Shown: positions 1-24,860, counted from the stretch's first letter. The stretch: 64,000 bases of DNA from an uncultured Planctomycetales bacterium (GCA_964535025.1 CAZHRW010000159.1:14527-78526), one strand, 5' to 3'. Notes: generated by a model from the sequence alone, not told the origin. Numbers and translations are program-made.

Positions 1-735
1 ATGAGCTGGTACCGCCCGGCGGGCTTCGACGCGTACAAGTACTACGTCGCCTGGGGCACCTTGAACCGCAACGCCCTGCACATGCCCCGCGGCGACGAGG
101 TCAACGGCCGCGCGGCGTGGCTGCTCGGCGAGCAGGGCGGCGATTGGGTCGACTACACCTTCGCGTTCACCGCCAACAACGCCTACCTCGGCTTCGGCGG
201 GGGCGTGGTCGTGCTGGTGCGGGACATGGATAACTGCTATTACCTCGACATCGCCCGCGGCCGTCTGGTGCGCAGGCTCGACGGCGCCGAGACCGTCCTG
301 ACGACCGTCGACGCCATTCAGATGCCCGCCACGGGCAGCCGGCGCTACGCCGTCTCCGTGGATGTCGAGCCGGCGGGCGTGACGATCGCCGTCGACGCCG
401 ACGACGACGGCACGACGGACCTGACCTTCACCGACGCCGATCCGACGGCCCTGGCGACGCTGAACGCCGGCGGCGTGGGCTTCCACTGCAACAACTCCGA
501 CAAGTGGCACGTCCTGCGCTTCGACGACCTCCGCGTCGAGGTCGCCGAGACGCGGAGCGGCGCGTCGGGTGATTGCGACGGCGATGGGGACGTCGATCTC
601 GACGATTTCGCCATTGTCAAGCTCAACTTCGGTCGCTCCGGCGTGACCGCCGGCGCCGCCGAGGGCGACCTGGACGGCGACGGGGACGTCGACCTCGACG
701 ACTTCGCGATCCTCAAGACGACCTTCGGGACGTGA
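1..735 (+). CDS. 3' part of a secreted protein (5' end lies outside the window). The C-terminus carries two dockerin-type repeats (GDCDGDGDVDLDDFAIVK and GDLDGDGDVDLDDFAILK).
   Basis: Open frame runs from the window edge to a stop at 735. The tandem Ca-binding dockerin type-I-like repeats are identical in style to the C-termini of the 9912..14918 and 31007..33328 proteins. Confidence 0.55.
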   Translation: MSWYRPAGFDAYKYYVAWGTLNRNALHMPRGDEVNGRAAWLLGEQGGDWVDYTFAFTANNAYLGFGGGVVVLVRDMDNCYYLDIARGRLVRRLDGAETVLTTVDAIQMPATGSRRYAVSVDVEPAGVTIAVDADDDGTTDLTFTDADPTALATLNAGGVGFHCNNSDKWHVLRFDDLRVEVAETRSGASGDCDGDGDVDLDDFAIVKLNFGRSGVTAGAAEGDLDGDGDVDLDDFAILKTTFGT

Positions 736-739
736 GGGT

Positions 740-1690
<951 letters not shown>

Positions 1691-1797
1691 GGCTGAGATC
1701 CTTTCACGTGAATCATAGGATGCGGATGTTCCGGAAAAACTCTACCTTTCTAGTGTAGTATGTCGCTGCTCAAACGTGCATTAAAATCATGAGGATT

Positions 1798-1810
1798 TTA
1801 CAATTTGTAA
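1798..1810. promoter_or_regulatory. perfect inverted repeat TTACAA-T-TTGTAA inside a ~190 bp AT-rich island between divergent cysK and the Rrf2 regulator. Candidate Rrf2/CymR-type operator.
   Basis: The palindrome is read directly from the sequence. The surrounding 1697..1885 is ~40% GC in a ~70% GC genome and also carries a direct repeat of TTCTAGT (about 1747 and 1818). Confidence 0.35.
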
Positions 1811-1939
1811 TAACCTATTCTAGTAAAAAGGGATAGGCAAAACAAATCGCGTGGGTTTCGGCGGTCTCCCTTGTATTGAGCCCAAGTGGGGGGGATAATG
1901 CTCAGCGGGGAGGTGCGGTTGGCGGGGAGGCAAGTGGTG

Positions 1940-2383
1940 ATGACACTCTCGCAGAAGTGCCAATACGCGGTGCGTGCCGTCCTGGAGTTGGCCAGGCGGT
2001 ATCGCCAGGGCCCGGTGCCCGCCGGGGAGGTGGCGGCCGTCCAGGGGATTCCGCGCCGGTTTCTGGAGGTGATCCTCAACGAGCTCAGGCCGACCGGCCT
2101 GGTGGCCTCCCGCCGCGGGGCGCACGGCGGGTACAGCCTGGCGCGGGACCCGCGGGAGATCACGGTCGCCGAGGTCATCCGCCTGGTCTGCGGGCCGCTC
2201 GAGCCCGTCCGCTCGGACGCCCTCGCCGGCGGCGGCGAGCTGCCCTGGGGGGCGCGGGCCCTGCAGGAGCTGTGGGACCGTGCCGGCCGCGCCGTGGACG
2301 ATGTCTATGCGTCGGTGACCTTCCACGACCTGGTCGACCGCGAGCGGTCGCTCCGCCGCGATGTGACCGACTACAGCATCTGA
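1940..2383 (+). CDS. Rrf2 family transcriptional regulator (CymR/IscR-like)
   Basis: MTLSQKCQYAVRAVLELA... is the Rrf2 wHTH N-terminus. Start moved to the in-frame ATG at 1940, since the track ORF 1886..2383 has a non-Rrf2 N-extension. Divergent from cysK, as for CymR. Confidence 0.8.
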   Translation: MTLSQKCQYAVRAVLELARRYRQGPVPAGEVAAVQGIPRRFLEVILNELRPTGLVASRRGAHGGYSLARDPREITVAEVIRLVCGPLEPVRSDALAGGGELPWGARALQELWDRAGRAVDDVYASVTFHDLVDRERSLRRDVTDYSI

Positions 2384-2648
2384 CCGGTCGCGGCCGCCGG
2401 GCGAAGAGGGCATCGCCGGTGCTCGGGTCAATCCCGCCAAACGAGGGGGGCGAAGTGGGCGAAGTACTGGAGCCGGCCGACCTTTGGTGCGCGGCAGGTT
2501 GTCGCTTTTACCCGTTTCCTCCTTGACAGACGCCCGCGACACCGCATAATGAGTGAGCGTTCATTCACTTTTGGACGAGCCAAGCCGCGAACCGGTCGCT
2601 GACGGTCGGCGGCGGCTTTTCGAGGCGGCACCCGGTGGAGTGCGGGCC

Positions 2649-3245
2649 ATGGCCAGACCGGCGGTCAAGAAGGATCGAATGGAGAGGGCGGCGATCGAGT
2701 TGTTCGCCACCCAGGGACTGGCGCGGACGACGGTCCGCGACATCGCCGCGGCGGCCGGGGTCGGCGAGGGGGCCTTGTACCGCCACTGGACCGGCAAGAA
2801 CGAGATGGCCTGGGCGCTCTATCGGCGGGAGGTCCACGCCTTCGCCGACGCCCTGCGGCCGTACCTGGAAGCGGCCGATGGACCCCTGGCCGATCGCGTG
2901 GCGGCGGCCGTGGCGTTCATCTACGGGGCCTACGACGTCGACCCGACCCGCCTGGCGTTCATCCTGTTTACCCAGCACGGCTTCCCGGCCGAGCACGTCC
3001 TCGACGATGCGTTCAATCCGTTCACGCTGGTGCTGGCGTTCTGCCGGCGGGAGATCCGCAGCGGGACGATCCCGCCGGCCGACGGGGAGGTCCTCGCGTC
3101 GCTGGTGATGGGGTCGGTCGTCCAGCCGCTGATCATGCACCGCTACGGGCGCGTCACGCGGCCGCCGCGGGCGATCGCCGCCGACGTGGCGGCGAGCATC
3201 ACGGCGCTGCTGCTAGCCGCGGCGGCGGGGGAGGCGACGGCATGA
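2649..3245 (+). CDS. TetR/AcrR family transcriptional regulator
   Basis: MARPAVKKDRMERAAIELFATQGLARTTVRDIAAAAGVGEGALYRHW is a TetR HTH. Start is at the internal ATG of track ORF 2553..3245. Its stop overlaps the next gene's ATG (ATGA). Confidence 0.8.
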   Translation: MARPAVKKDRMERAAIELFATQGLARTTVRDIAAAAGVGEGALYRHWTGKNEMAWALYRREVHAFADALRPYLEAADGPLADRVAAAVAFIYGAYDVDPTRLAFILFTQHGFPAEHVLDDAFNPFTLVLAFCRREIRSGTIPPADGEVLASLVMGSVVQPLIMHRYGRVTRPPRAIAADVAASITALLLAAAAGEATA

Positions 3246-3964
3246 GCGGCGCGAACGAATCCCGGCCGGGGGCGGCGGGACGGCTGGCGTGGCCGGTGGT
3301 GGGGGTGTTGTGCCTGCTGCCGGCGATCCAGACGGCGGCGGCCGTGTGGCTGGAAATCTACCCGGCGGTGACCTATCCGCTCATGAAGGTCGTGATGATC
3401 ATTCTCCCCCTGGCCATCTGGCGCGGCCGGCGCCTGGCGGTGCGGGATGTGGCCGCACGGATCGGCCTGGCACGGCCGCGGCTGCTGAGGGGCGTGGGGA
3501 TCGGCCTGGCGATGGCCGCGATCATCGTCGGCGGCTACGTTCTGCTCCTGCGCGGCCGCGTCGACGGGGCGGGGATCGCCCGCAAGACCACGTCGCTGGG
3601 GTTGCGGGAGTATTATTGGGCGATGGCCGTGGTCATTTCGCTGGCGAACGCCGCCTTCGAGGAATATTACTGGCGGGGGTTCCTGCTGAGCGAACTGCGG
3701 CCGTGGACCGGGTGGTCGTGGCGGCTGACCGTCCTGGCCGGGGCGCTGTTCGGGGTGCATCACGTTTTCGCCCTCGCGCCGCTGCTGGCCTGGCCGCTGG
3801 CGGCCGGGTGCACGGCGATCACGATGGTCGCCGGGGGCGTCTGGGCGTGGATGCGGGTGCGGGGGTGGTCGCTGGTGGATTGCTACCTCAGCCACGTTCT
3901 GGCGGACCTGGCGATCATGGGCGTCGGGTGGGATCTTTTGCAGCAGGCGGCGAGGGCCGGATGA
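3242..3964 (+). CDS. CPBP family intramembrane glutamic endopeptidase (CAAX protease/Abi-like)
   Basis: Multi-TM protein with EEYYWRGFLLSE (EExxxR), FGVHHVFA (FxxxH) and a distal H motif. Translationally coupled on both sides (ATGA overlaps at 3242 and 3961). Confidence 0.75.
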   Translation: MSGANESRPGAAGRLAWPVVGVLCLLPAIQTAAAVWLEIYPAVTYPLMKVVMIILPLAIWRGRRLAVRDVAARIGLARPRLLRGVGIGLAMAAIIVGGYVLLLRGRVDGAGIARKTTSLGLREYYWAMAVVISLANAAFEEYYWRGFLLSELRPWTGWSWRLTVLAGALFGVHHVFALAPLLAWPLAAGCTAITMVAGGVWAWMRVRGWSLVDCYLSHVLADLAIMGVGWDLLQQAARAG

Positions 3965-5274
3965 AGTACGACCAGGACACGCTCAATCAGATTCGTCGCG
4001 GCCGCAGCCGGTTCATCGCCATGGTGGTGACGTACGGGCTGGGCACGTTCAACGACAGTTTCTTCCGCCAGTCGGCCATGCTGCTGGCGGTCGCCGAAGG
4101 TCACGAGGCCATGCAGGGGTGGATCATGAGCCTGTTCGCCCTGCCGTACCTGCTGTTCGCCTCGCTGACCGGCTGGCTGGCGGACCGATTCTCCAAGAAG
4201 CGCGTCGTGATCGCCGCCAAGGCCCTGGAAGTGGTGGCGATGGTTCTGGGGGCCGTCGGGATCATCACGCTGAACTGGTGGTTCGTCCTGGCGATGGTGT
4301 TCATCATGGCGACCCAGTCGTGCCTGTTCAGCCCGGCCTTGAACGGGTCGATTCCCGAGCTGTACCCGGATGTGTACGTGACGCGGGCGAACGGGACGCT
4401 CAAGCTGGTCGTCACGGCCATGATCCTCGCCGGCGGCGCCGTCGCGGGGGTGGCGATGGGCTTCGAGGGCACCGGCTGGGGCGGCGTGCCGACCGAGCGG
4501 ATCGGCGTGGCGGTGGGGGTGGTGGCGATCTCGTTGTGCGGGCTGGCGATGAGCTTCGGCGTCGTGCGCCGGCCCGCGGCCGACCCCGACGCGCCGATAC
4601 CGCGACGGGGACCTGTCAGTACGATCCGCGAATTGATCGCCATTCGCCGCGATGCGCTGCTGGCGAAGGTGATCGCCACGAACGCGTTCACCTGGTTCGC
4701 CGGATCGTTGCTGATCCAGTTCATCAACCTGATGGCACAGAATGAATTCGGCTGGCCCAAGCAGGTCGCGGGGTACCTGGTGGCCGCCGAGTTGATCGGC
4801 CTGGCGGTGGGGGGGCTGGTGGTCAGTCGTCTGGGGGGCGGGCCGCGGTGGTACCGCGCGTTGGGGCCGTCCATACTGGCCATGGGCGGGCTGCTGGTGG
4901 TCATGGAGATGCTGCCGATGCTCCCCGACGGCGGGAGCGTGCTGTGGTCGTGGATGCCGTCGGCGCGGCGGCTGGCCGCGTACGGGCTGCTCGGTGCGAT
5001 CGGCGTGCTGGGCGGATCGGTCGTCATCCCCTGCGAGGCGTTCGTGCAGCGGCGCCCGCCGGCGGGGCGCAAGGGGACGGTTCTCGCCTCGGCCGGCTTC
5101 GCGGTGTTCGCGGGGATCCTGGTCTCCGGCCCGCTGGCGAACGTCCTGGCCGCACCCGGTGCGGGCGGACGATCGCTGGTCGCGCCCACCCGCGCGATGG
5201 CGCTGCTGGGGGTGGCGGCCCTGGCCGCCGGGGCGTTTTTCCGCCGCGCGTACGCGAAGGAGACCGAGGCATGA
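3961..5274 (+). CDS. MFS transporter, lysophospholipid transporter LplT-like
   Basis: In-frame ATG at 3961 inside track ORF 3289..5274; the upstream part of that ORF overlaps the CPBP gene out of frame. 12-TM MFS topology. Gene order MFS followed by an Aas-like acyltransferase mirrors lplT-aas. Confidence 0.7.
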   Translation: MKYDQDTLNQIRRGRSRFIAMVVTYGLGTFNDSFFRQSAMLLAVAEGHEAMQGWIMSLFALPYLLFASLTGWLADRFSKKRVVIAAKALEVVAMVLGAVGIITLNWWFVLAMVFIMATQSCLFSPALNGSIPELYPDVYVTRANGTLKLVVTAMILAGGAVAGVAMGFEGTGWGGVPTERIGVAVGVVAISLCGLAMSFGVVRRPAADPDAPIPRRGPVSTIRELIAIRRDALLAKVIATNAFTWFAGSLLIQFINLMAQNEFGWPKQVAGYLVAAELIGLAVGGLVVSRLGGGPRWYRALGPSILAMGGLLVVMEMLPMLPDGGSVLWSWMPSARRLAAYGLLGAIGVLGGSVVIPCEAFVQRRPPAGRKGTVLASAGFAVFAGILVSGPLANVLAAPGAGGRSLVAPTRAMALLGVAALAAGAFFRRAYAKETEA

Positions 5275-7913
5275 ATCGGCTGCTCACCTGGCTGGTCAAG
5301 GCGGTGCTGTGGCTGCGGTACCGCGTTCGCATCACCGGCGTCGACGAGGTCGCCCGGCGGGGGCGGTCGGGGATCCTCTTCCTGCCCAATCACCCGGCCC
5401 TGATCGACCCGATCATCCTGACGTCGCACCTGTACGGCCCGTTCGCCGTCCGCGCCCTGGCCGACCGGGGGCAGATCGACCGGTTTTTCATCCGGTGGCT
5501 GGCCCGACGGATCGGCGTGCTGCCGATCGAGGACGTCGCCACCGCCGGGCCCGACGCCGCCGACGCCGTCCGCCAGGCCGTCGACAAGGTGGTCGCGGGA
5601 CTGCGAGACGGCGACAATTTCATCCTCTACCCGGCCGGGCGGGCCTATCAGGGGTACCTCGAGGACCTCGGCGGAACCAGCGCCGTCGAGATGATCCTCC
5701 GCAAGTTGCCCGACGTCCGCGTCGTGCTCGTCCGCACCCGGGGCCTGTGGGGCAGCGCGTTCAGCCGCGCCTCCGGCACGGAGCCCGACGTCGCGACAAT
5801 CCTGCGCCGCGGTGTCGGCCGGCTGCTGCTTAACGGCATCGTCCTCGGCCCGCGCCGCCACGTGGAGATCACACTCGACGAGCCCGACGACCTGCCCCGC
5901 GGCGGCGATCGCCGGACCCTCAACCGCTACCTGGAAACGTTCTACAACGTCGGCGCCGAGCACAACACGTACGTCCCGTATACCTGGTGGGAGCGCGGCG
6001 GCGTGCGGACCGAGCCCGAACCCCGGCCGCCCGGCGTCCACGGCGACCTCGAGCGGGTCGGCGACGCCACCCGACGGCAGGTCGCCGACTACCTCCGCAC
6101 GCTCACCGGCCGCGACGAGCCGCTGTCGGACGACCTGCGGTTGGCGCACGACCTGGGGATGGACTCGCTGGCCCGCGCCGACCTGGTGATGTGGCTGGGG
6201 CGCGAGTTCGGCTACCCGCCGGGGGACGTCGACTCGCTGCGGACTGTGGGGGACGTGATGCTCGCGGCCGGCGGGCAGGCGCGGGGGGCGGTGGCCAGGC
6301 CGCTCAAGGCGGTGCCGGACCGGTGGTTTAACGACGGCGCCGAGCCGCGGCTGCTCGATGGGGTCGAAACCATGACCATCTGCGAGGCCTTCCTCGCCCA
6401 GGCCCGCCGCCGGCCGTCCGCCGTCGTCCTGGCCGACCAGACCAGTGGGGCGAAGACCTATCGCGATCTGGTGATGGGCATCCTGGCGCTCAGGCCCGCC
6501 ATCGAGGCGATCGACGGGACGCACGTGGCGATCATGCTGCCGGCCTCCGTCGCCGCCAACGTGGTCTACCTGGCGACGCTGTTCGCCGGCAAGACGCCCG
6601 TGATGGTCAACTGGACGACCGGGCGCAGGAACATCCTGCACGGCCTGGACGCCCTGGACGTTTCGGCGGTGCTGACGGCTCGGGAACTGGTCCACCGCTT
6701 AGGCGGCCAGGGCGTCGATCTCGGCGGCGCGGCCGAGCGGTTCGTCTACCTGGAGGACCTGCGGGCGTCGCTGACGACGAAGGCCAAGCTCGCCGCGTGG
6801 ATCGCCGCCCGCCTCGGCCTGCATCGCCTCGGCGCCGTCAGGCCGCCGGAGACCGCCGTGATCCTCTTCACCAGCGGGTCGGAGAACGTCCCCAAGATCG
6901 TCCCGCTGACCCACCGCAACATGCTGACCAACCTCGCCGACGCCTGGACCCGCTTCGCCCTCGGACCGACCGACAGCCTGCTGGGCATCCCCCCGCCGTT
7001 CCACTCGTTCGGATTAACGGCGACCATGCTCCTGTCGACCTGCACGGGACTGCGGGCGGCGTTTCATCCCAACCCGACCGAAGGGGCGGCGGTGGCCCGG
7101 TTGATCGACGCGTATGCCTGTTCGATCCTCGTGACCACGCCGACGTTCCTCAACGGGATGGTCCGCATGGCCGACGCCGACCAGTTGCTTTCGCTGCGGC
7201 TGGTCGTCTCGGGTGCCGAGGCCTGTCCGCCGCGGGTCTATGAGGCGATGGCCCGCCGGTGTCCGCAGGCGGTCGTGCTGGAAGGGTACGGCGTGACGGA
7301 GTGCTCGCCGATCATCTCGGTCAATCCCGAAGCCGATCCGCGGCCGGGGTCGATCGGCCCGGTCCTGCCGTCGATCGAGTACGCCATCACCGATCCCGAC
7401 ACGTTCGAGCGGGTCGAGGTCGGCCGGCGGGGCATGCTCCTGGTGCGGGGGCCCAGCGTGTTCGGAGGGTACCTCCAGCACGACGGGCCGTCGCCCTTTG
7501 TCGAGGCCGAGGGGCACACGTGGTATCGCACGGGCGACCTGGTCCGCGCCGATGAGGACGGCTGGCTGACGTTTGCCGGGCGGCTCAAGCGGTTCGCCAA
7601 GATCGGCGGGGAGATGATCTCCCTGCCGGCCATCGAGGCGGTGCTCACCGAGCGGTTCATTCGCGACGACGACGAGGGGCCCATCCTCGCCGTCGTCGCC
7701 GTGACGGCCGACGAGCGGCCGGAACTGGTGCTGGTGGCCGTGCGGGAGATCGATCGCGACGCCGCCAACGCCGCGATCCGCGAGGCGGGGCTGTCGGCCC
7801 TGCACAATATCCGGCGGGTCGAGCTGCTCGATGAGCTGCCCCTGCTGGGCACGGGCAAGACGGACTACCGGGCGCTCCAACGGCGACTCGCCGGCGAACA
7901 GAAGGACGCGTGA
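5271..7913 (+). CDS. three-domain Aas-like enzyme: PlsC-type lysophospholipid acyltransferase, then embedded acyl-carrier (phosphopantetheine-attachment) domain, then acyl-AMP ligase / acyl-ACP synthetase
   Basis: Start MNRLLTWLVKAV at 5271 (ATGA overlap with the MFS stop). NHPALIDPI = LPLAT HX4D motif. DLGMDSLARADLV = PP-binding DSL site. ILFTSGSENVPKIV, YGVTECSP and WYRTGDLV are AMP-binding motifs. Confidence 0.8.
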   Translation: MNRLLTWLVKAVLWLRYRVRITGVDEVARRGRSGILFLPNHPALIDPIILTSHLYGPFAVRALADRGQIDRFFIRWLARRIGVLPIEDVATAGPDAADAVRQAVDKVVAGLRDGDNFILYPAGRAYQGYLEDLGGTSAVEMILRKLPDVRVVLVRTRGLWGSAFSRASGTEPDVATILRRGVGRLLLNGIVLGPRRHVEITLDEPDDLPRGGDRRTLNRYLETFYNVGAEHNTYVPYTWWERGGVRTEPEPRPPGVHGDLERVGDATRRQVADYLRTLTGRDEPLSDDLRLAHDLGMDSLARADLVMWLGREFGYPPGDVDSLRTVGDVMLAAGGQARGAVARPLKAVPDRWFNDGAEPRLLDGVETMTICEAFLAQARRRPSAVVLADQTSGAKTYRDLVMGILALRPAIEAIDGTHVAIMLPASVAANVVYLATLFAGKTPVMVNWTTGRRNILHGLDALDVSAVLTARELVHRLGGQGVDLGGAAERFVYLEDLRASLTTKAKLAAWIAARLGLHRLGAVRPPETAVILFTSGSENVPKIVPLTHRNMLTNLADAWTRFALGPTDSLLGIPPPFHSFGLTATMLLSTCTGLRAAFHPNPTEGAAVARLIDAYACSILVTTPTFLNGMVRMADADQLLSLRLVVSGAEACPPRVYEAMARRCPQAVVLEGYGVTECSPIISVNPEADPRPGSIGPVLPSIEYAITDPDTFERVEVGRRGMLLVRGPSVFGGYLQHDGPSPFVEAEGHTWYRTGDLVRADEDGWLTFAGRLKRFAKIGGEMISLPAIEAVLTERFIRDDDEGPILAVVAVTADERPELVLVAVREIDRDAANAAIREAGLSALHNIRRVELLDELPLLGTGKTDYRALQRRLAGEQKDA

Positions 7914-8890
7914 GCATGCGAGAGGTGCTGATGCTGGGGATGCTGACCGGGATGACGCTGGCCGGCGGGTGCGGGGGCGTGCGGGACTTCTACGCCCGCA
8001 GCCTGGTCGTGCACACGCGCCTGCCGGGCCGCCTCCAATTGGCGCTGCAGCCGCCGGACGCGGTGCTGCTGCGTCGGGGGCGGATCGACCAGGCCCGCCG
8101 GATCGCCACGAGCGACGGGGTGTGCATCGACCTGTGGGTGATCAATGCCCGACCGGCGGCGGGGGACCGCCCGCGGGGCACGGTGGTGGCACTGCACGGG
8201 TTGGCGATGTCGCGGGTGGAGATGCTGGCCACCGCCCAACGCCTGGCCGATCGGGGCTTCGACGTCGTTCTACCCGACCACCGCGCGCACGGCCGCTCGA
8301 CGGGGCGGTACACGACCTTCGGGGCCAAGGAGGCCCGCGACGTCCGGGAGGTCCTCGACGTACTCCGGGCCGAGGGGGCCGTGGCGTTGCCCACCTATGC
8401 GGTGGGCGTGTCCATGGGCGGCGCGACGGCCGTGCTGTACGCCGCCGACGATCCCGACTGCCGGGGCGTCGTCGCCCTGGCCCCGCCGGCCGACACCCGC
8501 GCGATCCTCCGACGGCTGCTGGTCGTCTACGCCCCGTGGATGGTGGGTCGCCGGGCCGACGCCGTCGTCGATCGCGCCGGGGCGCTGGCCGATTTCGACG
8601 TCGACGCCACCAGCGCCGCCGACGCCGCTCGACGCCTGACGTGCCCGCTCCTGGTCGTGCACGGCACGTTCGACGCCATCGTGCCGACCTGGCACGGCCG
8701 CCGGGTCTACGCCGCGACCGCCGGGCCGAAACGCCTTGAATGCATCCGGGGCCTCGGTCACGCCCTCATCATGACCGGCCGTGCCGACTGGATCGCCGAC
8801 CAGGTCGACGCCATGGCCGCCGGCCGCTTCGTCGCCAAAGGCACCTGGGCGAGCGATAGGGAGACGCGAGATGAAAAAGTTAGCGGATGA
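7910..8890 (+). CDS. alpha/beta hydrolase (lipoprotein signal, lysophospholipase/esterase-like)
   Basis: LTGMTLAGGCGG lipobox; GVSMGGATA = GxSxG nucleophile elbow. GTGA/ATG start is coupled to the Aas-like stop. Confidence 0.7.
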   Translation: MSMREVLMLGMLTGMTLAGGCGGVRDFYARSLVVHTRLPGRLQLALQPPDAVLLRRGRIDQARRIATSDGVCIDLWVINARPAAGDRPRGTVVALHGLAMSRVEMLATAQRLADRGFDVVLPDHRAHGRSTGRYTTFGAKEARDVREVLDVLRAEGAVALPTYAVGVSMGGATAVLYAADDPDCRGVVALAPPADTRAILRRLLVVYAPWMVGRRADAVVDRAGALADFDVDATSAADAARRLTCPLLVVHGTFDAIVPTWHGRRVYAATAGPKRLECIRGLGHALIMTGRADWIADQVDAMAAGRFVAKGTWASDRETRDEKVSG

Positions 8891-9779
8891 TGCCCTCGAC
8901 GAGTCCCATTCCGCCGCGCCGTCCGTCAGCAAGCCAAAGAAGCCGCTGTGGCGGCGGCTGGTCGTGAGCGTCCTGCGCATCGTCATCGCGGCCTACGTCG
9001 GCCTGGCGCTGGTGCTGACGTCGTGTCAGTCGCGGATTGTCTATCAACCGTCGGAGACCATGGACGCGACGCCCGATGAGGCGGCGATGGAGTACGAAGA
9101 CGTCCGCTTCACCGCCGACGACGGGGTTCGCCTCCACGCGTGGTATATCCCGGCTGAGGGGGCCCGAGGCACGGTACTGGTCTGTCACGGCAATGCCGGC
9201 AATATCTCCGGCCGCCTGGCGACCGCGGCGCTGTTCCAGCGGCTGGGGCTGTCGGTGCTGCTGTTCGACTACCGTGGCTACGGGCTCAGCGAGGGCAAGC
9301 CGAGCGAGGAGGGCACTTACCTCGACGCGGCCGCCGCGTGGCGGTACCTTACCGAGGAGCGGGGGATCGACCCGGCCGGGATCGTGGTCTTCGGCCGTTC
9401 GCTGGGCTCGGCGATCGCGACCCGCCAGGCGGCCGCGGCGCCGCCGGCGGCGCTGATCGTCGAGTCGGCGTTCACCTCGGTCCCGGACGTCGCCAGGCAT
9501 TATTACCGCTTCCTGCCGGTCGGGTGGCTGTGCCGGTTCGACTACGCGACGGAAGCGACCATCGGCCGGGTGCGCTGCCCGGTCCTGGTCATCCACAGCC
9601 GCGACGACGAGATCATCCCCTTCGCCATGGGGCGGCGGGTGTTCGAGGCCGCGGGCGAGCCCAAACGCTTCCTGGCCATCGGCGGCGGACACAACGACGG
9701 CTTCCTCGTCAGCCAGGGCGATTATCTGCGCGAGATCGATTCGGTGCTCGACGAGGTCCTCGGCAAGGACGGGACCTGA
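8871..9779 (+). CDS. alpha/beta hydrolase with N-terminal membrane anchor
   Basis: Start MKKLADD at 8871, preceded by GGAGACG. TM segment LVVSVLRIVIAAYVGLALVL. CHGNAGN and GRSLGSAIA (GxSxG) motifs. Confidence 0.7.
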   Translation: MKKLADDALDESHSAAPSVSKPKKPLWRRLVVSVLRIVIAAYVGLALVLTSCQSRIVYQPSETMDATPDEAAMEYEDVRFTADDGVRLHAWYIPAEGARGTVLVCHGNAGNISGRLATAALFQRLGLSVLLFDYRGYGLSEGKPSEEGTYLDAAAAWRYLTEERGIDPAGIVVFGRSLGSAIATRQAAAAPPAALIVESAFTSVPDVARHYYRFLPVGWLCRFDYATEATIGRVRCPVLVIHSRDDEIIPFAMGRRVFEAAGEPKRFLAIGGGHNDGFLVSQGDYLREIDSVLDEVLGKDGT

Positions 9780-9911
9780 TCGGGGGTGCGAAACAATCCG
9801 GACGATAGGGGGCTGACGGGCGCCGGGGGATGTGATACAATGCCGGTGTCTTGCATTCTTTGTGAACAGGTGGGCCCGACGCGCATTCGCTGAATAGGAG
9901 ACAGACGCGTA

Positions 9912-12900
9912 ATGGAACGTTCGGCAACTCAGCCCCACGGTGGGCATCTCGGCGGTTGTCCGCTTCCCGGTTTCGAGACCCTCGAGCCGCGATTGATGCT
10001 GGCCGGCGACGTGGTGATCTCGGAGTTCATGGCCATCAACGATGGGACGCTGGCCGACGTGGACGGGGATTACAGCGACTGGATCGAACTGCACAACCGC
10101 GGCGACGACGCCGTCGACCTCGACGGGTGGTTTCTCACCGACGATCCGGCCGACCTGACCAAGTGGCGGATCCCCGCGATCACGCTGGCCGCCGGGGAGA
10201 TCGAGGTGATCTTCGCCTCCGACAAGGATCGCGACGACCCGGACGGTGAACTGCACACGGGCTTCAAGCTCAGCGGTTCGGGCGAGTACCTGGCGCTGGT
10301 GATGCCCGACGGGACCTCCATCGCCCACGCCTACGCGCCGACGGTCCAGTACGCCGACGTCTCCTACGGGCTCGACCTGGACGGCAACCCCGCCTACTTC
10401 GACCCGGCCACGCCCGGGGTGCCCAACGCCGGGGACGTGGAACTGCTGCCGGACGTCGAGTTCTCCGTCCAGCACGGCGTCTTCGACGCGCCGTTCACAC
10501 TGACGCTGAGCAGTTCGGTCCAGGATGCGACCATTTACTACACGCTGGACGGCACGGATCCCTACGGGGCGATCGACGCCGTCGAATACACCGGCCCGAT
10601 CGTCATCGACGCGACCACCGTCGTGCGGGCCTATGCCGAGACCTGGGACGCCGAATCCGCGGTGACCACGCAGACCTACATCTCCCTCGCATCGGTCCTG
10701 ACCCAGGGCGACGACCAGACCGCCATCGGCTTCCCCGACATCTGGCACGCCGGGGCCGGCGGCAGCGGCATCTACGACAGCGAATACCGCGACGCCGATT
10801 ACGAGATGGACCCGGACATCATCAACGACCCGGTCTGGGGGCCGCTGCTGACCGAGGCGCTCACCCAGATTCCGTCCATGGCGCTGACGCTGGACCCGTA
10901 CGACTTGTGGGACCCGGAAGACGGCATCTACCCCAACTCGATCCAGCGCGCCAGCCGCGACGACAAGTGGGAAAAGCCCTCGTCGCTGGAGTTGTTTTAC
11001 CCCGACGGCAGCACCGAGGAAGGCTTCACCGTCAACGCCGGCGCCCGCATGTTCGGCGAACTGGCCCGATGGGCCGCGGTCAACGACAAGCAGAGCTTCC
11101 GGATGGTGTTCCAGGGCGAGTACGGCCCGACGAAGCTGGTGACCGACTTCTTCGGCGACTCCGACGTCGACGAGTACGACACCATCGTCATGCGGGCCCA
11201 CTGGGGCAAGTCCTGGCTGCTGGACGAGGCCCTCGGCGACCGGCTGGGGGTTTCCTGGCTGAATTCCGATCCGTCGTCGGCCCAGTACCTCCGCGACCTC
11301 TACGCCCTGACCACCTTCGCCGATACCGGCAACCTCAGCTCCGACGGGCGCATGGTCCACCTGTACCTCAATGGCCTGTACTGGGGCCTTTACGAGGTCA
11401 TCGAACGGCCGGACAACTCCTTCAACGCCGAGCACCGTGGCGGGGACAAGGACGACTACAGCGTCATGAAGGGCGCCGCCGGCACATTCGCCTACCGCGG
11501 CGAGAACACGTATAACATTGGTGTGCACATGCCCTACTACATGTCCAACGGCCGCCTCCAGGACGGTAGCCGCGACATGTGGGACTGGCTCTTCCATACG
11601 TATTTCGATGCCCACGAGGACGGCATCAACATGCTCGAGCGGGACAATGTCACCCCGGTCCGCGGCACGATTAGTGATGAGGAACTGGCCGAGATCGCCC
11701 AATACGTCGACCTCGACAACCTCATCGACTACATGATCACGCTGTGGACGCTCAACCGCGGGGACTTCCCCGGCAAGAACTGGTACGCCGCCTGGGAAGG
11801 CGGCGCCGCCGACACGCCGCCCGACAAGCCGATCCAGTTCTACGTGTGGGACTCCGAAGCGTCCCTGGCCGGTACGGAGATCACGCATTGGACTCCGCCG
11901 GCCGAGCGATGGAACAGCCCCAGCAAGGGTAATGACACCGGCCCGGTCCGCATGTACTGGCGGCTGATCACCAACCAGGGCTTCCGCATCCGCTGGATGG
12001 AACGGGCCCGGGATCTGCTGGGCGACGGCGGGCCCCTCTCGGATGAGGCCTCCATGCAGCGCTACGCGGAGATGGCCTCGCAGATCGACATGGCCGTCAT
12101 CGCCGAATCCGCCCGCTGGGGCGACTCGGCGACGCTGCACATCAACGACCCGATGACCAAGGACGACTGGCAGGCCGAGTACGACCGCCTCATGGCCGAG
12201 TGGTTCCCCGGCCGCGCCGAGATGGTCCTGGCCGAGATGGGGGCGGCGGGGCTGGACGATGCGCCGACGGCGCCCGAGATCGACGTCCCCGGTGGTCTGG
12301 TTCAGCCCGGCACAATGGTGATGCTGAGCACGGTCGGCGACGGCGAGGTATGGTACACGCTCGACGGCACCGACCCCATGGACGGCGTCGGGATGCCGAT
12401 GCCGATGAGCGACCCGCGGCTGCAATGGGCCTTCAACGATACCGGAACCGATCTGGGCACCGCCTGGCGGGAAATCGACTACGACGATTCGACCTGGGGT
12501 ACGGGCACCGGCCGTCTCGGCTATGGCACCGGCGACGAGGATACCGCCATCGGCTTCGGCGACGATTCGCTCGACAAGCACATCACCACCTACTTCCGTG
12601 CCAACATCATCCTGGACGAAGTGCCGGACGATACGGTGACGCTCTACGTCCGCCGCGACGACGGCGTGGCGATCTACGTCAACGGCCATCGCATCGCCGA
12701 GCCGCACGACAATCTGCCCGCCGGCGAGATCACCTACGACACGCTGGCCAGCTCGTCGGTGGCCTTCGGGGCCGAAAACCAGTGGCACACATACGAAGTG
12801 GACCCGTCGCTGTTCGTCGAGGACCACAACGTGATCGCCGCGGAGGTCCACAAGTACAGCCCGCGCGGCTGGGACCTGACCTTCGAGATGACCACCGACC

Positions 12901-17016: not shown

Positions 17017-17832
17017 TTAACGTGCCGGGCCGAGCAGGTCGCCGATCTTCGCGGCGATGTCGTCGCTGCGCATGAGCGACTCGCCCACGAGGATCCCGCG
17101 GACGCCCGCGGCGGCGAGGCGCTCGACGTCGGCGTGGGTGTGGATGCCCGACTCGCTGACGAGGATGTCGCGGCCGTCGACCAGGTCGGCCAGGCGCAGC
17201 GTGGTGGCGATGTCGGTGGTGAAGGTGGTCAGGTCCCGATTATTGATCCCCAGCAGGACGTACCCGCCGGCAGGAAAACCCGCCAGCGAGCGGACGCGGA
17301 GAAGTTCGTCGGCGTCGTGGACCTCGATCAGGCACGTCAGCGACAACTGGCTGGCCAGGATGAGCAGGTCGGTCAAGGGGCCGGTCTGCAGGCACGCGGC
17401 GATCAGGAGGACCGCGTCGGCCCCGGCGGCCCGTGATTCGTAAACCTGGTAAGGATCAATAATAAAATCCTTGCGGAGGACGGGCAGGCCCACCGCCTGG
17501 CGGACCTGGGTGAGGTAGGCCAGGCTCCCCTGAAAGTACGTCTCATCCGTCAGGACACTGATGGCTGAGGCGCCGGCGGCCTCGTAGGTGCGGGCGATCG
17601 CGACGGGGTCGAAGTCGGTGCGGATGACGCCCGCCGAGGGCGAGGCCTTCTTGACCTCGGCGATGAGGTTGACGGCGCGGGCCGGGCGCCGGCTGATGGC
17701 GCGATAGAAGTTGCGACAGCGCGGCAGGTTGCGGCACTGGCGGATCAGCGTTTCGGTCGGACGCGCCTGCTTGGCCGCGGCGACTTCTTTGCGCTTGGTT
17801 TCGGTGATCTCATGCAATATAGTCCGGGCCAT
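17017..17832 (-). CDS. trpC: indole-3-glycerol phosphate synthase
   Basis: 271 aa. LIAEVKKASPSAGVIRTDFDPVAIARTYEAAGASAISVLTDETYFQGS is the TrpC signature. Confidence 0.9.
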   Translation of the reverse strand: MARTILHEITETKRKEVAAAKQARPTETLIRQCRNLPRCRNFYRAISRRPARAVNLIAEVKKASPSAGVIRTDFDPVAIARTYEAAGASAISVLTDETYFQGSLAYLTQVRQAVGLPVLRKDFIIDPYQVYESRAAGADAVLLIAACLQTGPLTDLLILASQLSLTCLIEVHDADELLRVRSLAGFPAGGYVLLGINNRDLTTFTTDIATTLRLADLVDGRDILVSESGIHTHADVERLAAAGVRGILVGESLMRSDDIAAKIGDLLGPAR

Positions 17833-17862
17833 AGTGGGGTAGTTTACTGTTTAGCGGGCATC

Positions 17863-18795
17863 ATGCTGAAGGCTTTTGGGATTTCTTTGCTCGTGGCCGA
17901 GCAGGCGACGCGTCCGACCACGGCGCCGGGTCGGCCCGGCGGGGTCGCCGTATCGCCGGCCGACCATTTCGCCATGATCGTCATGGCCCTGGGGCTGCTC
18001 GCCCTGGGCGTCTGGCTGTTCCGCCGCGTCGGCCACAGCCGCAAGCTGCTCCTGCACGATGCCCCGGGACGCCCGAACAACCTCGGCTGGCCCCACGTGA
18101 TCGTGATCGTCGGGTGGCTGGCGCTCGACCGGGGCTCGGCCCTGGTGGCGGCGCTGCAGGAGAGGGCCCCCGCGGACGTCACAGCCGGCGTCCTCGTCGG
18201 CGGCGCGATCTTCCAACTGATGATCCTGGCCATCGCCCTGGCGGCGGCCCACATGGGCTTCCGGCGGGGGATCGTCCACGGGATGGGGCTGTCGACCCGC
18301 CGGTGGTTCACCGACAGTGTGCGGGGCCTCCTGGCCGGCCTGGCGGTCTTTCCCGTGTGCATCGCGCTGTTCAGTCTGTCGGAGGTCCTGATCCCGGAGG
18401 CCTTCCAGCAGACCCATGTCGTGCTGGTGTTCCTCAGGCAGGATGCGGCCCTGTCGGGCAAGCTGGTGGCGGTCGCGGCGGCGGTGCTCGTGGCGCCCGT
18501 CGTCGAGGAGGTTCTCTATCGCGGCATCCTGCAGACCGCGCTGCGGCGGGTCCTCGGCGGGCCGTGGCCGGGGATTCTGGCCGCCGGCGCGCTGTTCACG
18601 CTCGCCCACCTGTCCTTTGCCGCCGACCCCGTCCGGCCGGTCGCCCTGGAAGACCTCGCGCCCCTGTTCGCCCTGGCAGTGGTGCTGGGCTACAACTACG
18701 AGCGGACCGGACGGCTGCTGCCGAGCATCATCACCCATTTCGTCTTCAACGCCGTCAACGTCGTCGGCGCCCTCCTGCCCGGCGGCGCCCCGTAA
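17863..18795 (+). CDS. CPBP family intramembrane metalloprotease (second copy)
   Basis: VVEEVLYRGILQ (EExxxR), FTLAHLSF, HFVFN motifs. Multi-TM. Start at the internal ATG so it does not overlap trpC. Confidence 0.7.
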   Translation: MLKAFGISLLVAEQATRPTTAPGRPGGVAVSPADHFAMIVMALGLLALGVWLFRRVGHSRKLLLHDAPGRPNNLGWPHVIVIVGWLALDRGSALVAALQERAPADVTAGVLVGGAIFQLMILAIALAAAHMGFRRGIVHGMGLSTRRWFTDSVRGLLAGLAVFPVCIALFSLSEVLIPEAFQQTHVVLVFLRQDAALSGKLVAVAAAVLVAPVVEEVLYRGILQTALRRVLGGPWPGILAAGALFTLAHLSFAADPVRPVALEDLAPLFALAVVLGYNYERTGRLLPSIITHFVFNAVNVVGALLPGGAP

Positions 18796-24853: not shown

Positions 24854-24860
24854 CCTCGCC

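What the first reader, a model, noticed from the sequence alone, without database searches (positions are those of the whole stretch)
2649..9779. TetR-headed, fully translationally coupled six-gene lysophospholipid recycling operon that includes a CPBP protease
Every junction from the TetR gene to the second hydrolase is a 4-nt ATGA/GTGA overlap or a short overlap: 3242, 3961, 5271, 7910, 8871. Gene order is TetR, CPBP intramembrane protease, LplT-like MFS flippase, Aas-like acyltransferase/acyl-ACP synthetase, lipoprotein alpha/beta hydrolase, membrane-anchored alpha/beta hydrolase. LplT-Aas pairs are known. Adding a TetR sensor, a CPBP (Abi-like) protease and two esterases to one coupled unit suggests a regulated envelope lipid remodelling or lipid-toxin detoxification system, not a simple housekeeping pair.
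Basis: partly seen in the sequence, partly recalled or inferred. Interest (0 to 1): 0.55.

Follow-up and report, generated by a model that had tools for sequence, protein, structure and literature searches.

The report
TetR-controlled lysophospholipid repair operon with CPBP protease
This is a real six-gene operon in a planctomycete: a fatty-acid-type repressor controls a known membrane-lipid repair pair (LplT flippase plus Aas re-acylating enzyme), with an unusual built-in acyl carrier domain, a conserved membrane protease partner, and two lineage-specific exported lipases.

Summary
Six same-strand genes (2649-9779) have the stated junctions. One strong promoter-like site lies upstream, and none lies inside the cluster.

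The LplT/Aas reading holds by direct comparison with the E. coli proteins, but three things change the picture.

1. The Aas-like enzyme has three domains: acyltransferase, acyl carrier domain and acyl-ACP synthetase. The HX4D motif and the phosphopantetheine serine (Ser299) are conserved. This architecture occurs in many phyla, and I found no paper describing it.
2. The conserved unit is not all six genes. TetR-CPBP-LplT-Aas recurs in Planctomycetota and Auribacterota. TetR-LplT-Aas without the CPBP recurs in Desulfobacterota. The two hydrolases follow Aas only in the closest relatives, and one has decayed in an 85%-identical relative.
3. The operator is identified: TGAGTGA-GCGT-TCATTCA, immediately after the -10 hexamer. 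It is conserved upstream of TetR in every TetR-headed locus whose upstream sequence was available (14). It has the same 7-4-7 layout and almost the same half-sites as the Bacillus acyl-CoA-responsive FadR box.

The CPBP keeps all its catalytic motifs and an Rce1-like fold, but its role is unknown.

Verdict: a new variant of a known system, of moderate interest. The function of the accessory genes is inferred, not shown.

The parts
2523..2550 (+). Sigma-70-type promoter: -35 TTGACA (2523-2528), 16-nt spacer, -10 CATAAT (2545-2550)
   Evidence: It matches 11 of 12 consensus positions and is the only strong site between 1700 and 9800. The same TTGACA / 16-17 nt / ATAAT layout is found upstream of TetR in related loci.
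2549..2569 (.). TetR operator. 7-4-7 inverted repeat TGAGTGA-GCGT-TCATTCA (2550-2567), lying inside the 18-nt palindrome AGTGAGCGTTCATTCACT (2552-2569). It starts at the last base of the -10 hexamer.
   Evidence: It is unique in the window. An equivalent site sits upstream of TetR in L081, L088, L082, L136, L086, L092, L007, L115/L138 and L170-L173. A degenerate pattern derived from these sites hits only them in 3.6 Mb searched on both strands. The layout and 13 of 14 half-site bases match the Bacillus FadR box WTGAATGAMTANTCATTCAN (PMC5397183).
2649..3245 (+). TetR-family repressor, 198 aa
   Evidence: Pfam TetR_N, E 1.7e-16. The start MARP... is conserved in homologues. Homologues at 44-83% identity head LplT-Aas loci in three phyla.
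3242..3964 (+). CPBP (Rce1-like) intramembrane glutamic protease, 240 aa
   Evidence: Pfam PF02517, E 9.8e-13. E140-E141...R145, F170...H174 and H218...D222 are invariant in 19-22 homologues. The AlphaFold model has pLDDT 92.9, and its only meaningful PDB match is Rce1 (4cad, probability 1.0, TM 0.54).
3961..5274 (+). LplT-type MFS lysophospholipid flippase, 437 aa
   Evidence: Pfam MFS_1. The best NCBIfam hit is the MFS part of MFS-Aas fusions (PRK08633, E 8e-48); LplT PRK11195 scores E 4e-16. It is 27% identical to E. coli LplT over 355 aa. E. coli LplT matches the profile built from this family at 1e-80.
5271..7913 (+). Three-domain Aas-type enzyme, 880 aa. Acyltransferase: about residues 1-240, His41/Asp46 (His41 codon 5391-5393). 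Carrier domain: about residues 260-340, nt 6048-6290, Ser299 codon 6165-6167. Acyl-ACP synthetase: about residues 370-880, from nt 6378.
   Evidence: Pfam Acyltransferase, PP-binding and AMP-binding. PRK08633 E 9e-136, chlamydial AasC model PRK06334 E 4.5e-99, E. coli Aas model E 2.5e-84. The synthetase domain is 32% identical to E. coli Aas (E 3e-71) and the transferase domain 31%. Among 80 family members: H41 80/80, D298 80/80, S299 74/80, adenylation motifs 80/80. In the model, Ser299 sits at the start of helix II of a small helical domain.
7910..8890 (+). Hydrolase 1: exported alpha/beta serine hydrolase, probable lipoprotein, 326 aa (lipobox LAGG-C21; GVS168MG, D255, H284)
   Evidence: Pfam Hydrolase_4, E 6.5e-27. 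The nearest solved relatives are monoacylglycerol lipases (M. tuberculosis 6eic, E 2e-10). The orthologue in L082 is 55% identical and also has a lipobox; L081 holds only a remnant with an internal deletion.
8871..9779 (+). Hydrolase 2: alpha/beta serine hydrolase with an N-terminal membrane anchor, 302 aa (KPKKPLWRR followed by a transmembrane helix; GRS177LG, D245, H274)
   Evidence: Pfam Hydrolase_4, E 5.2e-16. The nearest solved relative is the ABH domain of a Vibrio RtxA toxin (6imp, E 5.5e-14). Orthologues are 79% identical in L081 and 59% in L082.

Best explanation
This is one TetR-repressed operon for retrieving and re-acylating lysophospholipids at the cytoplasmic membrane. It is a variant of the LplT/Aas repair cycle.

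Shown here:
- A single promoter carries a conserved FadR-box-like operator placed immediately after the -10 hexamer.
- Six tightly coupled genes follow it.
- There is true homology to LplT and Aas.
- All catalytic motifs are intact.

Inferred mechanism:
1. Without ligand, the TetR dimer sits on TGAGTGA-N4-TCATTCA and blocks transcription.
2. A long-chain acyl compound releases it. Candidates are a free fatty acid, an acyl thioester or a lysophospholipid, all of which accumulate when membrane lipid is being hydrolysed.
3. The MFS protein flips lysophospholipid from the outer to the inner leaflet.
4. The synthetase domain of the Aas-type enzyme adenylates a free fatty acid and loads it on the enzyme's own phosphopantetheine arm at Ser299. 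E. coli Aas instead uses free ACP.
5. The HX4D acyltransferase domain (His41/Asp46) transfers the acyl chain to the lysophospholipid.
6. In this lineage, two exported serine hydrolases work at the periplasmic face. One is a lipoprotein resembling monoacylglycerol lipases; the other is membrane-anchored. They either generate or clear mono-acyl lipids.
7. The CPBP protease is a catalytically competent, recurrent partner of the pair. Its substrate is unknown. My best guess is that it removes a membrane-inserted or lipid-anchored peptide during the same envelope-damage response.
For: Operon structure:
- Overlapping junctions with Shine-Dalgarno-like sequences.
- One promoter-like site upstream and the next only after the last gene.
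- The tight junctions recur in L081, L082, L086, L088 and L087.

LplT/Aas identity:
-.
- The MFS is adjacent to or fused with Aas in roughly 20-25 of the 37 closer GTDB loci.
- The literature describes LplT/Aas as a bicistronic or fused pair forming a complex (PMC11416262).

Carrier domain:
- The Pfam PP-binding hit is above its threshold.
- D298 is present in 80/80 and S299 in 74/80 family members across phyla.
- The fold is helical, with the serine at the start of helix II.
- E. coli Aas does not release acyl-ACP (PMC5693948), so a covalent carrier is mechanistically natural.

Regulation:
- The operator is conserved in 14 loci ranging from AT-rich to 70% GC.
- In Desulfobaculum a second copy sits in a separate promoter directly in front of the LplT-Aas fusion gene.
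- The operator resembles the box of acyl-CoA-responsive FadR.

CPBP partnership:
- TetR-CPBP-LplT-Aas is found in two PVC phyla.
- 13 of 43 informative CPBP contexts have LplT-Aas, and these are spread over the whole CPBP tree.
- The catalytic motifs are invariant.

Hydrolases:
- Both have export signals, intact catalytic triads and lipase-type nearest relatives.

Physiological role:
- LplT/Aas protects against phospholipase attack (PMC8926400; PMC11416262).
Against: - No activity, transcript or ligand was measured.
- The MFS and Aas scores are far below NCBIfam equivalog cut-offs, so substrate specificity may differ from E. coli.
- The CPBP subfamily lies away from LplT-Aas in 30 of 43 informative contexts. 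Conversely, only 1-2 of 80 genome loci holding this Aas family carry it.
- The hydrolases are confined to close relatives, and one is decaying in a near relative. They may be dispensable or unrelated.
- TetR similarity to FadR proteins is limited to the DNA-binding domain, so the ligand is a guess.
- No phosphopantetheinyl transferase gene lies nearby.
Confidence: 0.58

Rival explanations
1. Only TetR-LplT-Aas is a functional unit. The CPBP and the two hydrolases are co-transcribed passengers with unrelated jobs, such as general membrane protein quality control or esterase activity on polymers taken up by the cell.
For: - TetR-LplT-Aas exists without the CPBP in Desulfobaculum (L170/L171) and in L172.
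- 30 of 43 informative CPBP contexts lack LplT-Aas, and the other neighbours are heterogeneous, including a sulfatase and a PEP-CTERM protein.
- The hydrolases are absent from every other TetR-CPBP-LplT-Aas locus, and hydrolase 1 carries an internal deletion in L081.
Against: - LplT-Aas/TetR is by far the most recurrent neighbour of this CPBP subfamily.
- The linked loci are spread over the whole CPBP tree and two phyla, with 4-nt overlaps.
- Both hydrolases are lipase-type and exported to the side of the membrane where LplT collects its substrate.
Confidence: 0.2
2. The operon serves nutrition rather than repair. The exported hydrolases cut environmental glycerolipids, LplT imports the lysolipids, and the self-contained Aas uses scavenged fatty acids to build the cell's own phospholipids, as chlamydiae do with host lipids.
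For: - Relatives of the same three-domain enzyme are common in Chlamydiota.
- The characterised chlamydial AasC/LpaT pair scavenges host fatty acids (PMC5693948).
- Both hydrolases are extracytoplasmic lipase types.
- A fatty-acyl-responsive repressor would fit substrate induction.
Against: - The hydrolases are missing from almost all related loci, so scavenging cannot be the ancestral logic of the module.
- No fatty-acid uptake or beta-oxidation genes lie in the window.
- It gives no role to the CPBP.
Confidence: 0.15
3. The acyltransferase-carrier-adenylation enzyme is a small assembly line that makes a special acylated lipid or lipopeptide. The MFS exports the product. The CPBP acts as a processing or self-immunity protein, as in bacteriocin loci, and TetR acts as a typical efflux regulator.
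For: - Embedded carrier domains are typical of assembly lines.
- CPBP/Abi proteins are known in bacteriocin processing and immunity (family description; PMC13559823).
- TetR with an MFS is a common efflux layout.
Against: - The MFS is specifically LplT-like and is repeatedly fused N-terminally to Aas-type enzymes.
- The adenylation domain's best matches are Aas and AasC, not NRPS or FAAL enzymes.
- There is no condensation, thioesterase or precursor-peptide gene.
- The same TetR and operator control a classical carrier-less LplT-Aas fusion.
Confidence: 0.06

Closest known systems
E. coli LplT/Aas 2-acyl-GPE cycle (lysophospholipid transporter plus bifunctional acyltransferase/acyl-ACP synthetase)
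   Same: - An MFS flippase homologue: 27% identity; profile E 1e-80.
- An HX4D acyltransferase followed by an ANL-type acyl-ACP synthetase in the same order: 31% and 32% identity.
- The two genes overlap in one operon.
   Different: - The gene order is lplT then aas, the reverse of E. coli.
- An insert of about 140 aa with a carrier domain lies between the two Aas domains.
- A dedicated TetR repressor, a CPBP protease and two hydrolases sit in the same operon.
- The E. coli pair has none of these in the annotated region fetched.
MFS-Aas fusion proteins (NCBIfam PRK08633 type; P. aeruginosa PA3267; Desulfobaculum L170)
   Same: - They are the best family matches for both the MFS and the Aas parts.
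- The Desulfobaculum fusion is under a 51%-identical TetR with the same operator type.
   Different: - Here the two proteins are separate. They are fused in L007 and in about 10 of the metagenomic homologues.
- The Desulfobaculum fusion has no carrier domain: only about 50 residues separate its transferase and synthetase parts.
Chlamydia trachomatis LpaT (CT775) and AasC (CT776)
   Same: The synthetase domain matches the AasC model at E 4.5e-99. The chemistry is the same: fatty acid activation on a carrier, then lysophospholipid acylation (PMC5693948).
   Different: In C. trachomatis these are two separate proteins using free ACP. Here, and in many environmental Chlamydiota, they form one polypeptide with its own carrier domain.
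Bacillus TetR-family FadR (YsiA) and its box WTGAATGAMTANTCATTCAN
   Same: The operator has the same 7-4-7 layout and 13 of 14 half-site bases are identical. There are weak HTH-level matches to FadR models and to B. halodurans FadR structures.
   Different: - There is no detectable similarity in the ligand-binding domain.
- The scores are far below the FadR cut-off.
- The regulated genes are for lipid repair, not beta-oxidation.
- The ligand is untested.
Rce1/CPBP intramembrane proteases, including S. aureus LnsB of the LnsAB lipoprotein N-acylation system
   Same: It shares the Pfam family and the fold. LnsB shows that a CPBP protein can take part in a reaction that uses a phospholipid sn-1 acyl chain (PMC13559823) and therefore, by my inference, leaves a lysophospholipid.
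   Different: - The LnsB motifs are degenerate and dispensable, whereas here all three are invariant.
- No LnsA-like NlpC/P60 gene was found among the genes scanned; five genes between 56.4 and 64 kb were not scanned.
- There is no specific sequence match to any named CPBP subfamily.
P. aeruginosa Arc3 next to aas (defence against phospholipase toxins)
   Same: The concept is the same: an accessory polytopic membrane protein encoded next to aas, acting with it to limit lysophospholipid damage (PMC8926400).
   Different: Arc3A is a protein with 35 transmembrane segments and no catalytic motifs. It is unrelated to CPBP and is controlled by Gac/Rsm, not by TetR.

Membership tests
LplT/Aas lysophospholipid remodelling system | MFS transporter homologous to LplT | tested here: met
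   It is 27% identical to E. coli LplT over 355 aa, E 1e-8. E. coli LplT matches the family profile at 1e-80. NCBIfam LplT scores E 4e-16 but lies below the equivalog cut-off.
LplT/Aas lysophospholipid remodelling system | N-terminal PlsC-type acyltransferase domain with an HX4D motif | tested here: met
   H41-PALI-D46. H41 is present in 80/80 and D46 in 76/80 family members. Identity to the E. coli Aas transferase domain is 31%.
LplT/Aas lysophospholipid remodelling system | C-terminal acyl-ACP synthetase (ANL) domain | tested here: met
   AMP-binding E 2e-62. Identity to E. coli Aas is 32% over 525 aa, E 3e-71. TSGSE...K542, E677, D756, R771 and K863 are conserved in 79-80 of 80 members.
LplT/Aas lysophospholipid remodelling system | The two genes are adjacent or fused and co-transcribed | tested here: met
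   There is a 4-nt overlap at 5271. The genes are adjacent or fused in roughly 20-25 of the 37 closer genome loci and in all TetR-headed loci of 44% identity or more.
LplT/Aas lysophospholipid remodelling system | Acyl donor made on free holo-ACP supplied in trans | tested here: not met
   A PP-binding domain with a conserved DSL serine lies between the two catalytic domains. This implies a carrier in cis. Whether free ACP can also serve is untested.
LplT/Aas lysophospholipid remodelling system | Lysophospholipid flipping and ATP-dependent re-acylation activity | not testable with these tools
   This needs a spheroplast uptake and acylation assay as in PMC11416262.
TetR-family repressor (FadR-like subgroup considered) | N-terminal TetR HTH domain | tested here: met
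   Pfam TetR_N, E 1.7e-16.
TetR-family repressor (FadR-like subgroup considered) | Palindromic operator overlapping the regulator's own promoter | tested here: met
   The 7-4-7 site at 2550-2567 lies immediately after the -10 hexamer. It is conserved in 14 loci and absent elsewhere.
TetR-family repressor (FadR-like subgroup considered) | Membership of the Bacillus FadR equivalog, with a long-chain acyl-CoA ligand | tested here: not met
   The NCBIfam FadR model scores 26 bits against a cut-off of 200, and only over the HTH. The operator similarity is a functional lead only. The ligand is untested.
CPBP (Rce1-like) intramembrane glutamic protease | Pfam PF02517 match above the gathering score | tested here: met
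   48.7 bits against 22.4.
CPBP (Rce1-like) intramembrane glutamic protease | Motifs EExxxR, FxxxH and HxxxN/D | tested here: met
   E140-E141-R145, F170-H174 and H218-D222 are invariant in 22 homologues.
CPBP (Rce1-like) intramembrane glutamic protease | Rce1-like helical-bundle fold | tested here: met
   The model has pLDDT 92.9. Its only meaningful PDB match is Rce1 (4cad, probability 1.00, TM 0.52-0.54).
CPBP (Rce1-like) intramembrane glutamic protease | Proteolytic activity on a defined substrate | not testable with these tools
   No substrate candidate is encoded in the conserved core.
LnsAB-type lipoprotein N-acylation system | CPBP partner with degenerate motifs plus an NlpC/P60 LnsA enzyme | tested here: not met
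   The motifs are intact here. No NlpC/P60 gene was found in the cluster or among the other window genes scanned; five genes between 56.4 and 64 kb were not scanned.
Known anti-phage defence systems | Match to a PADLOC model | tested here: not met
   None of the six proteins has a hit at E <= 0.001.

The most novel reading that the evidence does not exclude
The CPBP protease may be a true third component of the LplT/Aas machinery. It would be an intramembrane protease acting on a lipid-anchored or membrane-inserted peptide whose turnover is coupled to lysophospholipid retrieval. This would give the first lipid-linked function for a catalytically active bacterial CPBP. Alongside it, the carrier-embedded Aas would be a self-sufficient acyl-transfer enzyme that works independently of the cell's ACP pool, and the FadR-like TetR would be the first dedicated sensor and regulator of lysophospholipid repair.
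Probability: 0.22. Interest if true: 0.7.

Novelty: new variant of a known kind. Interest (0 to 1): 0.45.

Why it matters
LplT/Aas is the only dedicated lysophospholipid repair route known in Gram-negative bacteria, and it protects cells from host and bacterial phospholipases. How it is regulated, and what it works with, is largely unknown.

This locus offers three testable handles:
- A dedicated repressor with a defined operator, conserved across three phyla, that looks like a fatty-acyl sensor.
- A widespread but apparently undescribed form of Aas with its own carrier domain. This would uncouple repair from the fatty-acid-synthesis ACP pool.
- A catalytically intact CPBP protease repeatedly welded to the pair. 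Bacterial CPBP proteins are abundant and mostly of unknown function, so a conserved genetic partner is a useful entry point.

The two hydrolases illustrate how a lineage can bolt exported lipases onto the core. They are probably not part of the general design.

Tried and rejected
1. **LnsB-like role for the CPBP** (lipoprotein N-acylation producing lysolipid). An attractive idea, but the CPBP motifs here are invariant, whereas in LnsB they are dispensable. No LnsA-type gene was found among the window genes scanned, and no named CPBP subfamily matches.
2. **Anti-phage or Abi defence system.** There are no PADLOC hits.
3. **Riboswitch or attenuator in the roughly 80-nt leader (2570-2648).** Rfam finds nothing. 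A GC-rich hairpin followed by UUUU is present, but the fold is no better than shuffles (z -0.67).
4. **Internal terminators.** Hairpins followed by T-runs at 3906-3929 and 5213-5234 lie in coding sequence, have only 4-5 T and are weak. I did not treat them as splitting the operon.
5. **Terminator after 9779.** No significant structure was found.
6. **Horizontal transfer island.** The scored cluster genes have the same third-position GC as the rest of the window.
7. **A phosphopantetheinyl transferase or other recurrent partner next to the three-domain Aas in 79 genome loci.** Apart from the MFS, and an ABC-type ATPase gene seen in 10 loci and not followed up, neighbours looked like lineage-specific synteny.
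8. **A PEP-CTERM/exosortase link for the CPBP.** The match to TIGR03008 is weak (19.5 bits against 81). A PEP-CTERM protein lies upstream of the CPBP in only one small clade.
9. **Sequence matches in the PDB for the CPBP and the MFS.** None were found.
10. **Looking up the window's own contig by exact protein.** This failed.
11. **Literature search for CPBP together with lysophospholipid.** No papers were found.

Full report
**1. The observation**

The window is about 70% GC. Between 2553 and 9779 the + strand carries six consecutive ORFs whose third-position GC (0.87-0.91; scored for five of them, the MFS ORF was not scored separately) matches the rest of the window. The long reverse-strand ORFs are shadows of the high-GC coding strand.

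- ATGA at 3242, 3961 and 5271.
- GTGA at 7910.
- A 20-nt overlap at 8871-8890.

Conserved N-termini in homologues support the starts at 2649, 3242, 3961, 5271 and 8871. Only the hydrolase-1 start is ambiguous, between GTG 7910 and ATG 7916. Each start is preceded by a purine-rich, Shine-Dalgarno-like stretch inside the upstream gene.

The consensus scan finds one strong promoter-like site: TTGACA, 16 nt, CATAAT at 2523-2550, with 11 of 12 matches. The next site on this strand is at 9813-9841, after the last gene. The hairpin-plus-T sites inside the cluster are weak and lie in coding sequence. No Rfam family matches.

Runs of overlapping junctions are not unusual here. A second TetR-headed operon (TetR, OEP, HlyD, AcrB) at 24023-30699 is built the same way.

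**2. What the genes are**

Pfam and NCBIfam results:

| Gene | Best family evidence |
|---|---|
| TetR | TetR_N |
| CPBP | Rce1-like/CPBP |
| MFS | Best match is the transporter part of MFS-Aas fusions (E 8e-48); LplT matches at 4e-16 |
| Aas-like (880 aa) | Acyltransferase (19-125), PP-binding (270-328), AMP-binding (376-735); best full-length matches are Aas-type models (E 9e-136) and chlamydial AasC (E 4.5e-99) |
| Hydrolases 1 and 2 | Hydrolase_4 alpha/beta hydrolases |

Comparison with E. coli K-12:
- Synthetase domain: 32% identity to Aas over 525 residues (E 3e-71).
- Transferase domain: 31% identity.
- MFS: 27% identity to LplT over 355 residues.
- Both E. coli proteins match the profiles I built from the window's families, at 1e-114 and 1e-80.

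So the LplT/Aas assignment is sound at family level. All scores are well below NCBIfam equivalog cut-offs, so exact substrates may differ.

**3. The embedded carrier domain**

This stretch is a phosphopantetheine-binding domain.

Conservation among 80 full-length relatives from Planctomycetota, Acidobacteriota, Desulfobacterota, Myxococcota, Chlamydiota, Verrucomicrobiota and others:
- His41 of the HX4D motif: 80/80.
- Asp298: 80/80.
- Ser299: 74/80.
- Adenylation motifs: 79-80 of 80.

The six exceptions at Ser299 all belong to one clade, Holophagaceae and Geothrix, which has DAL in place of DSL.

An AlphaFold model (pLDDT 83) places Ser299 at the N-terminus of the second helix of a small helical domain, as in acyl carrier proteins.

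E. coli Aas uses free holo-ACP and does not release acyl-ACP (PMC11416262, PMC5693948), so a covalently built-in carrier is a natural variant. Source databases call these proteins only 'AMP-binding protein' or an acyl-ACP ligase/acyltransferase. I found no paper describing the architecture, which is not proof that none exists.

**4. Conservation of the cluster**

I anchored searches on three different genes.

*Aas anchor.* This used 80 species-representative genomes plus metagenomic contigs.
- The MFS is adjacent or fused in roughly 20-25 of the 37 closer loci.
- The CPBP accompanies it clearly only in one of the 80 (L007, Candidatus Theseobacter, Auribacterota), arranged as TetR, CPBP and an MFS-Aas fusion; a second locus has a marginal CPBP hit on the opposite strand.

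*Close relatives.*
- L088 (its Aas gene is cut off at the contig end) and L081 (85% Aas identity) share the Rrf2, TetR, CPBP, MFS, Aas order.
- L082 (65% Aas identity) has all six genes, plus an extra 175-aa lipoprotein gene between TetR and the CPBP.
- In L081, hydrolase 1 is reduced to a remnant that has lost residues 42-268, while hydrolase 2 is intact.

*CPBP anchor.* A metagenome scan gave 59 subfamily loci.
- 43 have enough downstream sequence to judge, and 13 of these have LplT-Aas directly after the CPBP.
- These 13 are spread over the whole CPBP tree, including its deepest branches.
- Other neighbours are heterogeneous: a sulfatase in 9 loci and a PEP-CTERM protein in one clade.
- None of these loci has the hydrolases.

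*TetR anchor.* Homologues of 44-83% identity head LplT-Aas loci even without the CPBP.
- Desulfobaculum sp. SPO524 (L170/L171): TetR followed by a classical, carrier-less MFS-acyltransferase-synthetase fusion.
- L172: TetR, a 42-aa ORF, MFS, Aas.

The nested picture is therefore:
- The LplT-Aas pair is widespread.
- A dedicated TetR regulates it in three phyla.
- The CPBP is a recurrent but separable partner.
- The two hydrolases are a recent add-on in one lineage.

**5. The operator**

Immediately after the -10 hexamer lies TGAGTGA-GCGT-TCATTCA (2550-2567), inside the palindrome AGTGAGCGTTCATTCACT (2552-2569). It is unique in the window.

The same promoter-plus-palindrome layout precedes TetR in every TetR-headed locus whose upstream sequence was available. 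The base composition of these loci ranges from AT-rich (L007) to 70% GC. The consensus is TRAGTRA-N4-TYAYTYA. A degenerate pattern derived from these sites hits nothing else in 3.6 Mb searched on both strands. That test is partly circular, because the pattern came from the sites themselves, but it does show specificity.

In Desulfobaculum a second copy (AAGTTAACGTTTACTT) sits in a separate promoter directly in front of the LplT-Aas gene. This is the clearest sign that this repressor controls LplT-Aas itself.

The site has the same 7-4-7 layout as the Bacillus TetR-type FadR box WTGAATGAMTANTCATTCAN, and 13 of 14 half-site bases are identical (PMC5397183). FadR is released by long-chain acyl-CoA. 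Protein similarity to FadR is confined to the DNA-binding domain. A fatty-acyl ligand is therefore a reasonable inference, not a result.

**6. The accessory proteins**

*CPBP.* E140-E141-R145, F170-H174 and H218-D222 are invariant in 22 homologues. A confident model (pLDDT 92.9) has Rce1 as its only meaningful structural match in the PDB.

This differs from S. aureus LnsB, a CPBP needed for lipoprotein N-acylation from the sn-1 chain of phosphatidylglycerol, whose motifs are degenerate and dispensable (PMC13559823). No LnsA-like gene was found among the window genes I scanned; five genes between 56.4 and 64 kb were not scanned. I therefore treat the CPBP as an active protease with an unknown substrate.

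*Hydrolase 1.* It has a signal peptide with a lipobox (Cys21) and a Ser168/Asp255/His284 triad. Its nearest solved relatives are monoacylglycerol lipases.

*Hydrolase 2.* It has a positively charged N-terminus followed by one transmembrane helix, and a Ser177/Asp245/His274 triad. Its nearest solved relative is the alpha/beta-hydrolase effector domain of a Vibrio RtxA toxin. From my own knowledge, that domain is a phospholipase A1.

Both hydrolases should therefore act outside the cytoplasm, on the side where LplT picks up its substrate. This topology is inferred from sequence.

**7. Mechanism and rivals**

The best-supported reading is a repressor-controlled lysophospholipid retrieval and re-acylation operon:
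1. A fatty-acyl signal releases TetR.
2. LplT flips lysophospholipid inward.
3. The synthetase domain loads a fatty acid onto the enzyme's own carrier arm.
4. The transferase domain restores the diacyl lipid.
5. The exported hydrolases make or clear mono-acyl lipids.
6. The CPBP handles an unknown membrane peptide in the same response.

LplT/Aas is known to protect against phospholipase attack and to sit next to other accessory membrane proteins such as Arc3 (PMC8926400).

The rivals, scored in their own section, are:
- The CPBP and hydrolases are passengers.
- The operon serves lipid scavenging rather than repair.
- The operon makes and exports a special lipid.

No known defence system matches.

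**8. Novelty and verdict**

The core is a known system. Four things are new, and all are predictions:
- The carrier-embedded Aas architecture.
- The dedicated TetR with its FadR-like operator, conserved across three phyla.
- The recurrent CPBP partner. No paper in the library mentions CPBP together with lysophospholipid.
- The lineage-specific hydrolase extension.

This is a new variant of a known kind. It would interest lipid and envelope specialists as a set of clean, testable hypotheses, but it is not very surprising. Interest: 0.45.

Noticed in passing
window 24023-30699 (+): A second TetR-headed, tightly coupled operon: TetR (TetR_N plus TetR_C_24), an outer membrane efflux protein, a HlyD-type adaptor and an AcrB-type RND pump. 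There are 4-nt overlaps at 26396 and 27586. It is an ordinary efflux operon, and it shows that this operon style is common in the genome.
   Followed up: partly
window 17812-18795 (+): A second, longer CPBP/Rce1-like gene (327 aa, Pfam E 1.7e-21). Its start overlaps the start of the divergent indole-3-glycerol-phosphate synthase gene (17017-17832, - strand). It is only distantly related to the operon's CPBP (profile E 6e-06).
   Followed up: partly
window 740-2383: A divergent pair: a PALP enzyme resembling cysteine synthase (740-1690, - strand) and an Rrf2/CymR-like regulator (1940-2383, + strand). An unusually AT-rich spacer separates them (about 1700-1885; GC 0.58 in that 500-nt bin). The pair lies just upstream of the TetR operon in L081 and L088 as well, so it is syntenic, but it appears to be a separate unit.
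   Followed up: partly
L081 7504-7781: In the 85%-identical relative, the hydrolase-1 gene keeps its signal peptide and lipobox (residues 3-41) and its C-terminus (269-324). It has lost the middle, including the catalytic serine. This is either gene decay or an assembly artefact in that MAG.
   Followed up: yes
L082 5479-6006: An extra 175-aa predicted lipoprotein with no Pfam match is inserted between TetR and the CPBP, overlapping TetR by 4 nt.
   Followed up: partly
L012, L015, L017, L023, L025, L076 (Holophagaceae/Geothrix): One clade of the three-domain Aas family has replaced the phosphopantetheine serine (DSL) with alanine (DAL), while keeping the rest of the carrier domain. In these loci no LplT-type MFS lies next to the gene.
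   Followed up: partly
L170 9579-9923 and L171 6297-6512: In Desulfobaculum, TetR and the LplT-Aas fusion have separate promoters, each with its own operator copy. A leader of 200-340 nt precedes the fusion gene.
   Followed up: partly
L173 8968-8984: A 40%-identical TetR carries the same operator type but sits next to ATP synthase genes, not LplT-Aas. The subfamily may regulate distant targets in some genomes.
   Followed up: no
L084/L085/L097/L108 and 9 other CPBP loci: Where this CPBP subfamily is not next to LplT-Aas, it lies downstream of a small protein ending in a PEP-CTERM motif (one clade), or has a sulfatase gene within about 1 kb, usually upstream (nine loci).
   Followed up: partly
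window 2578-2621: A GC-rich hairpin followed by UUUU lies in the roughly 80-nt leader between the operator and the TetR start codon. It looks like a terminator, but the fold is no more stable than shuffled sequence (z -0.67). Relatives with short leaders lack it.
   Followed up: partly
window 3906-3929 and 5213-5234: Two hairpin-plus-T-run sites lie 30-60 nt upstream of the CPBP/MFS and MFS/Aas junctions, inside coding sequence. T-runs are rare at 70% GC. Any effect on coupling or transcript processing is untested.
   Followed up: no
window 9912-14918 (+) and 1-735 (+): The operon is flanked by secreted-protein genes with dockerin domains. The downstream one is a 1668-aa protein with lamin-tail, CotH, Fn3-associated and dockerin domains, and it has its own promoter-like site at 9813-9841.
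   Followed up: no
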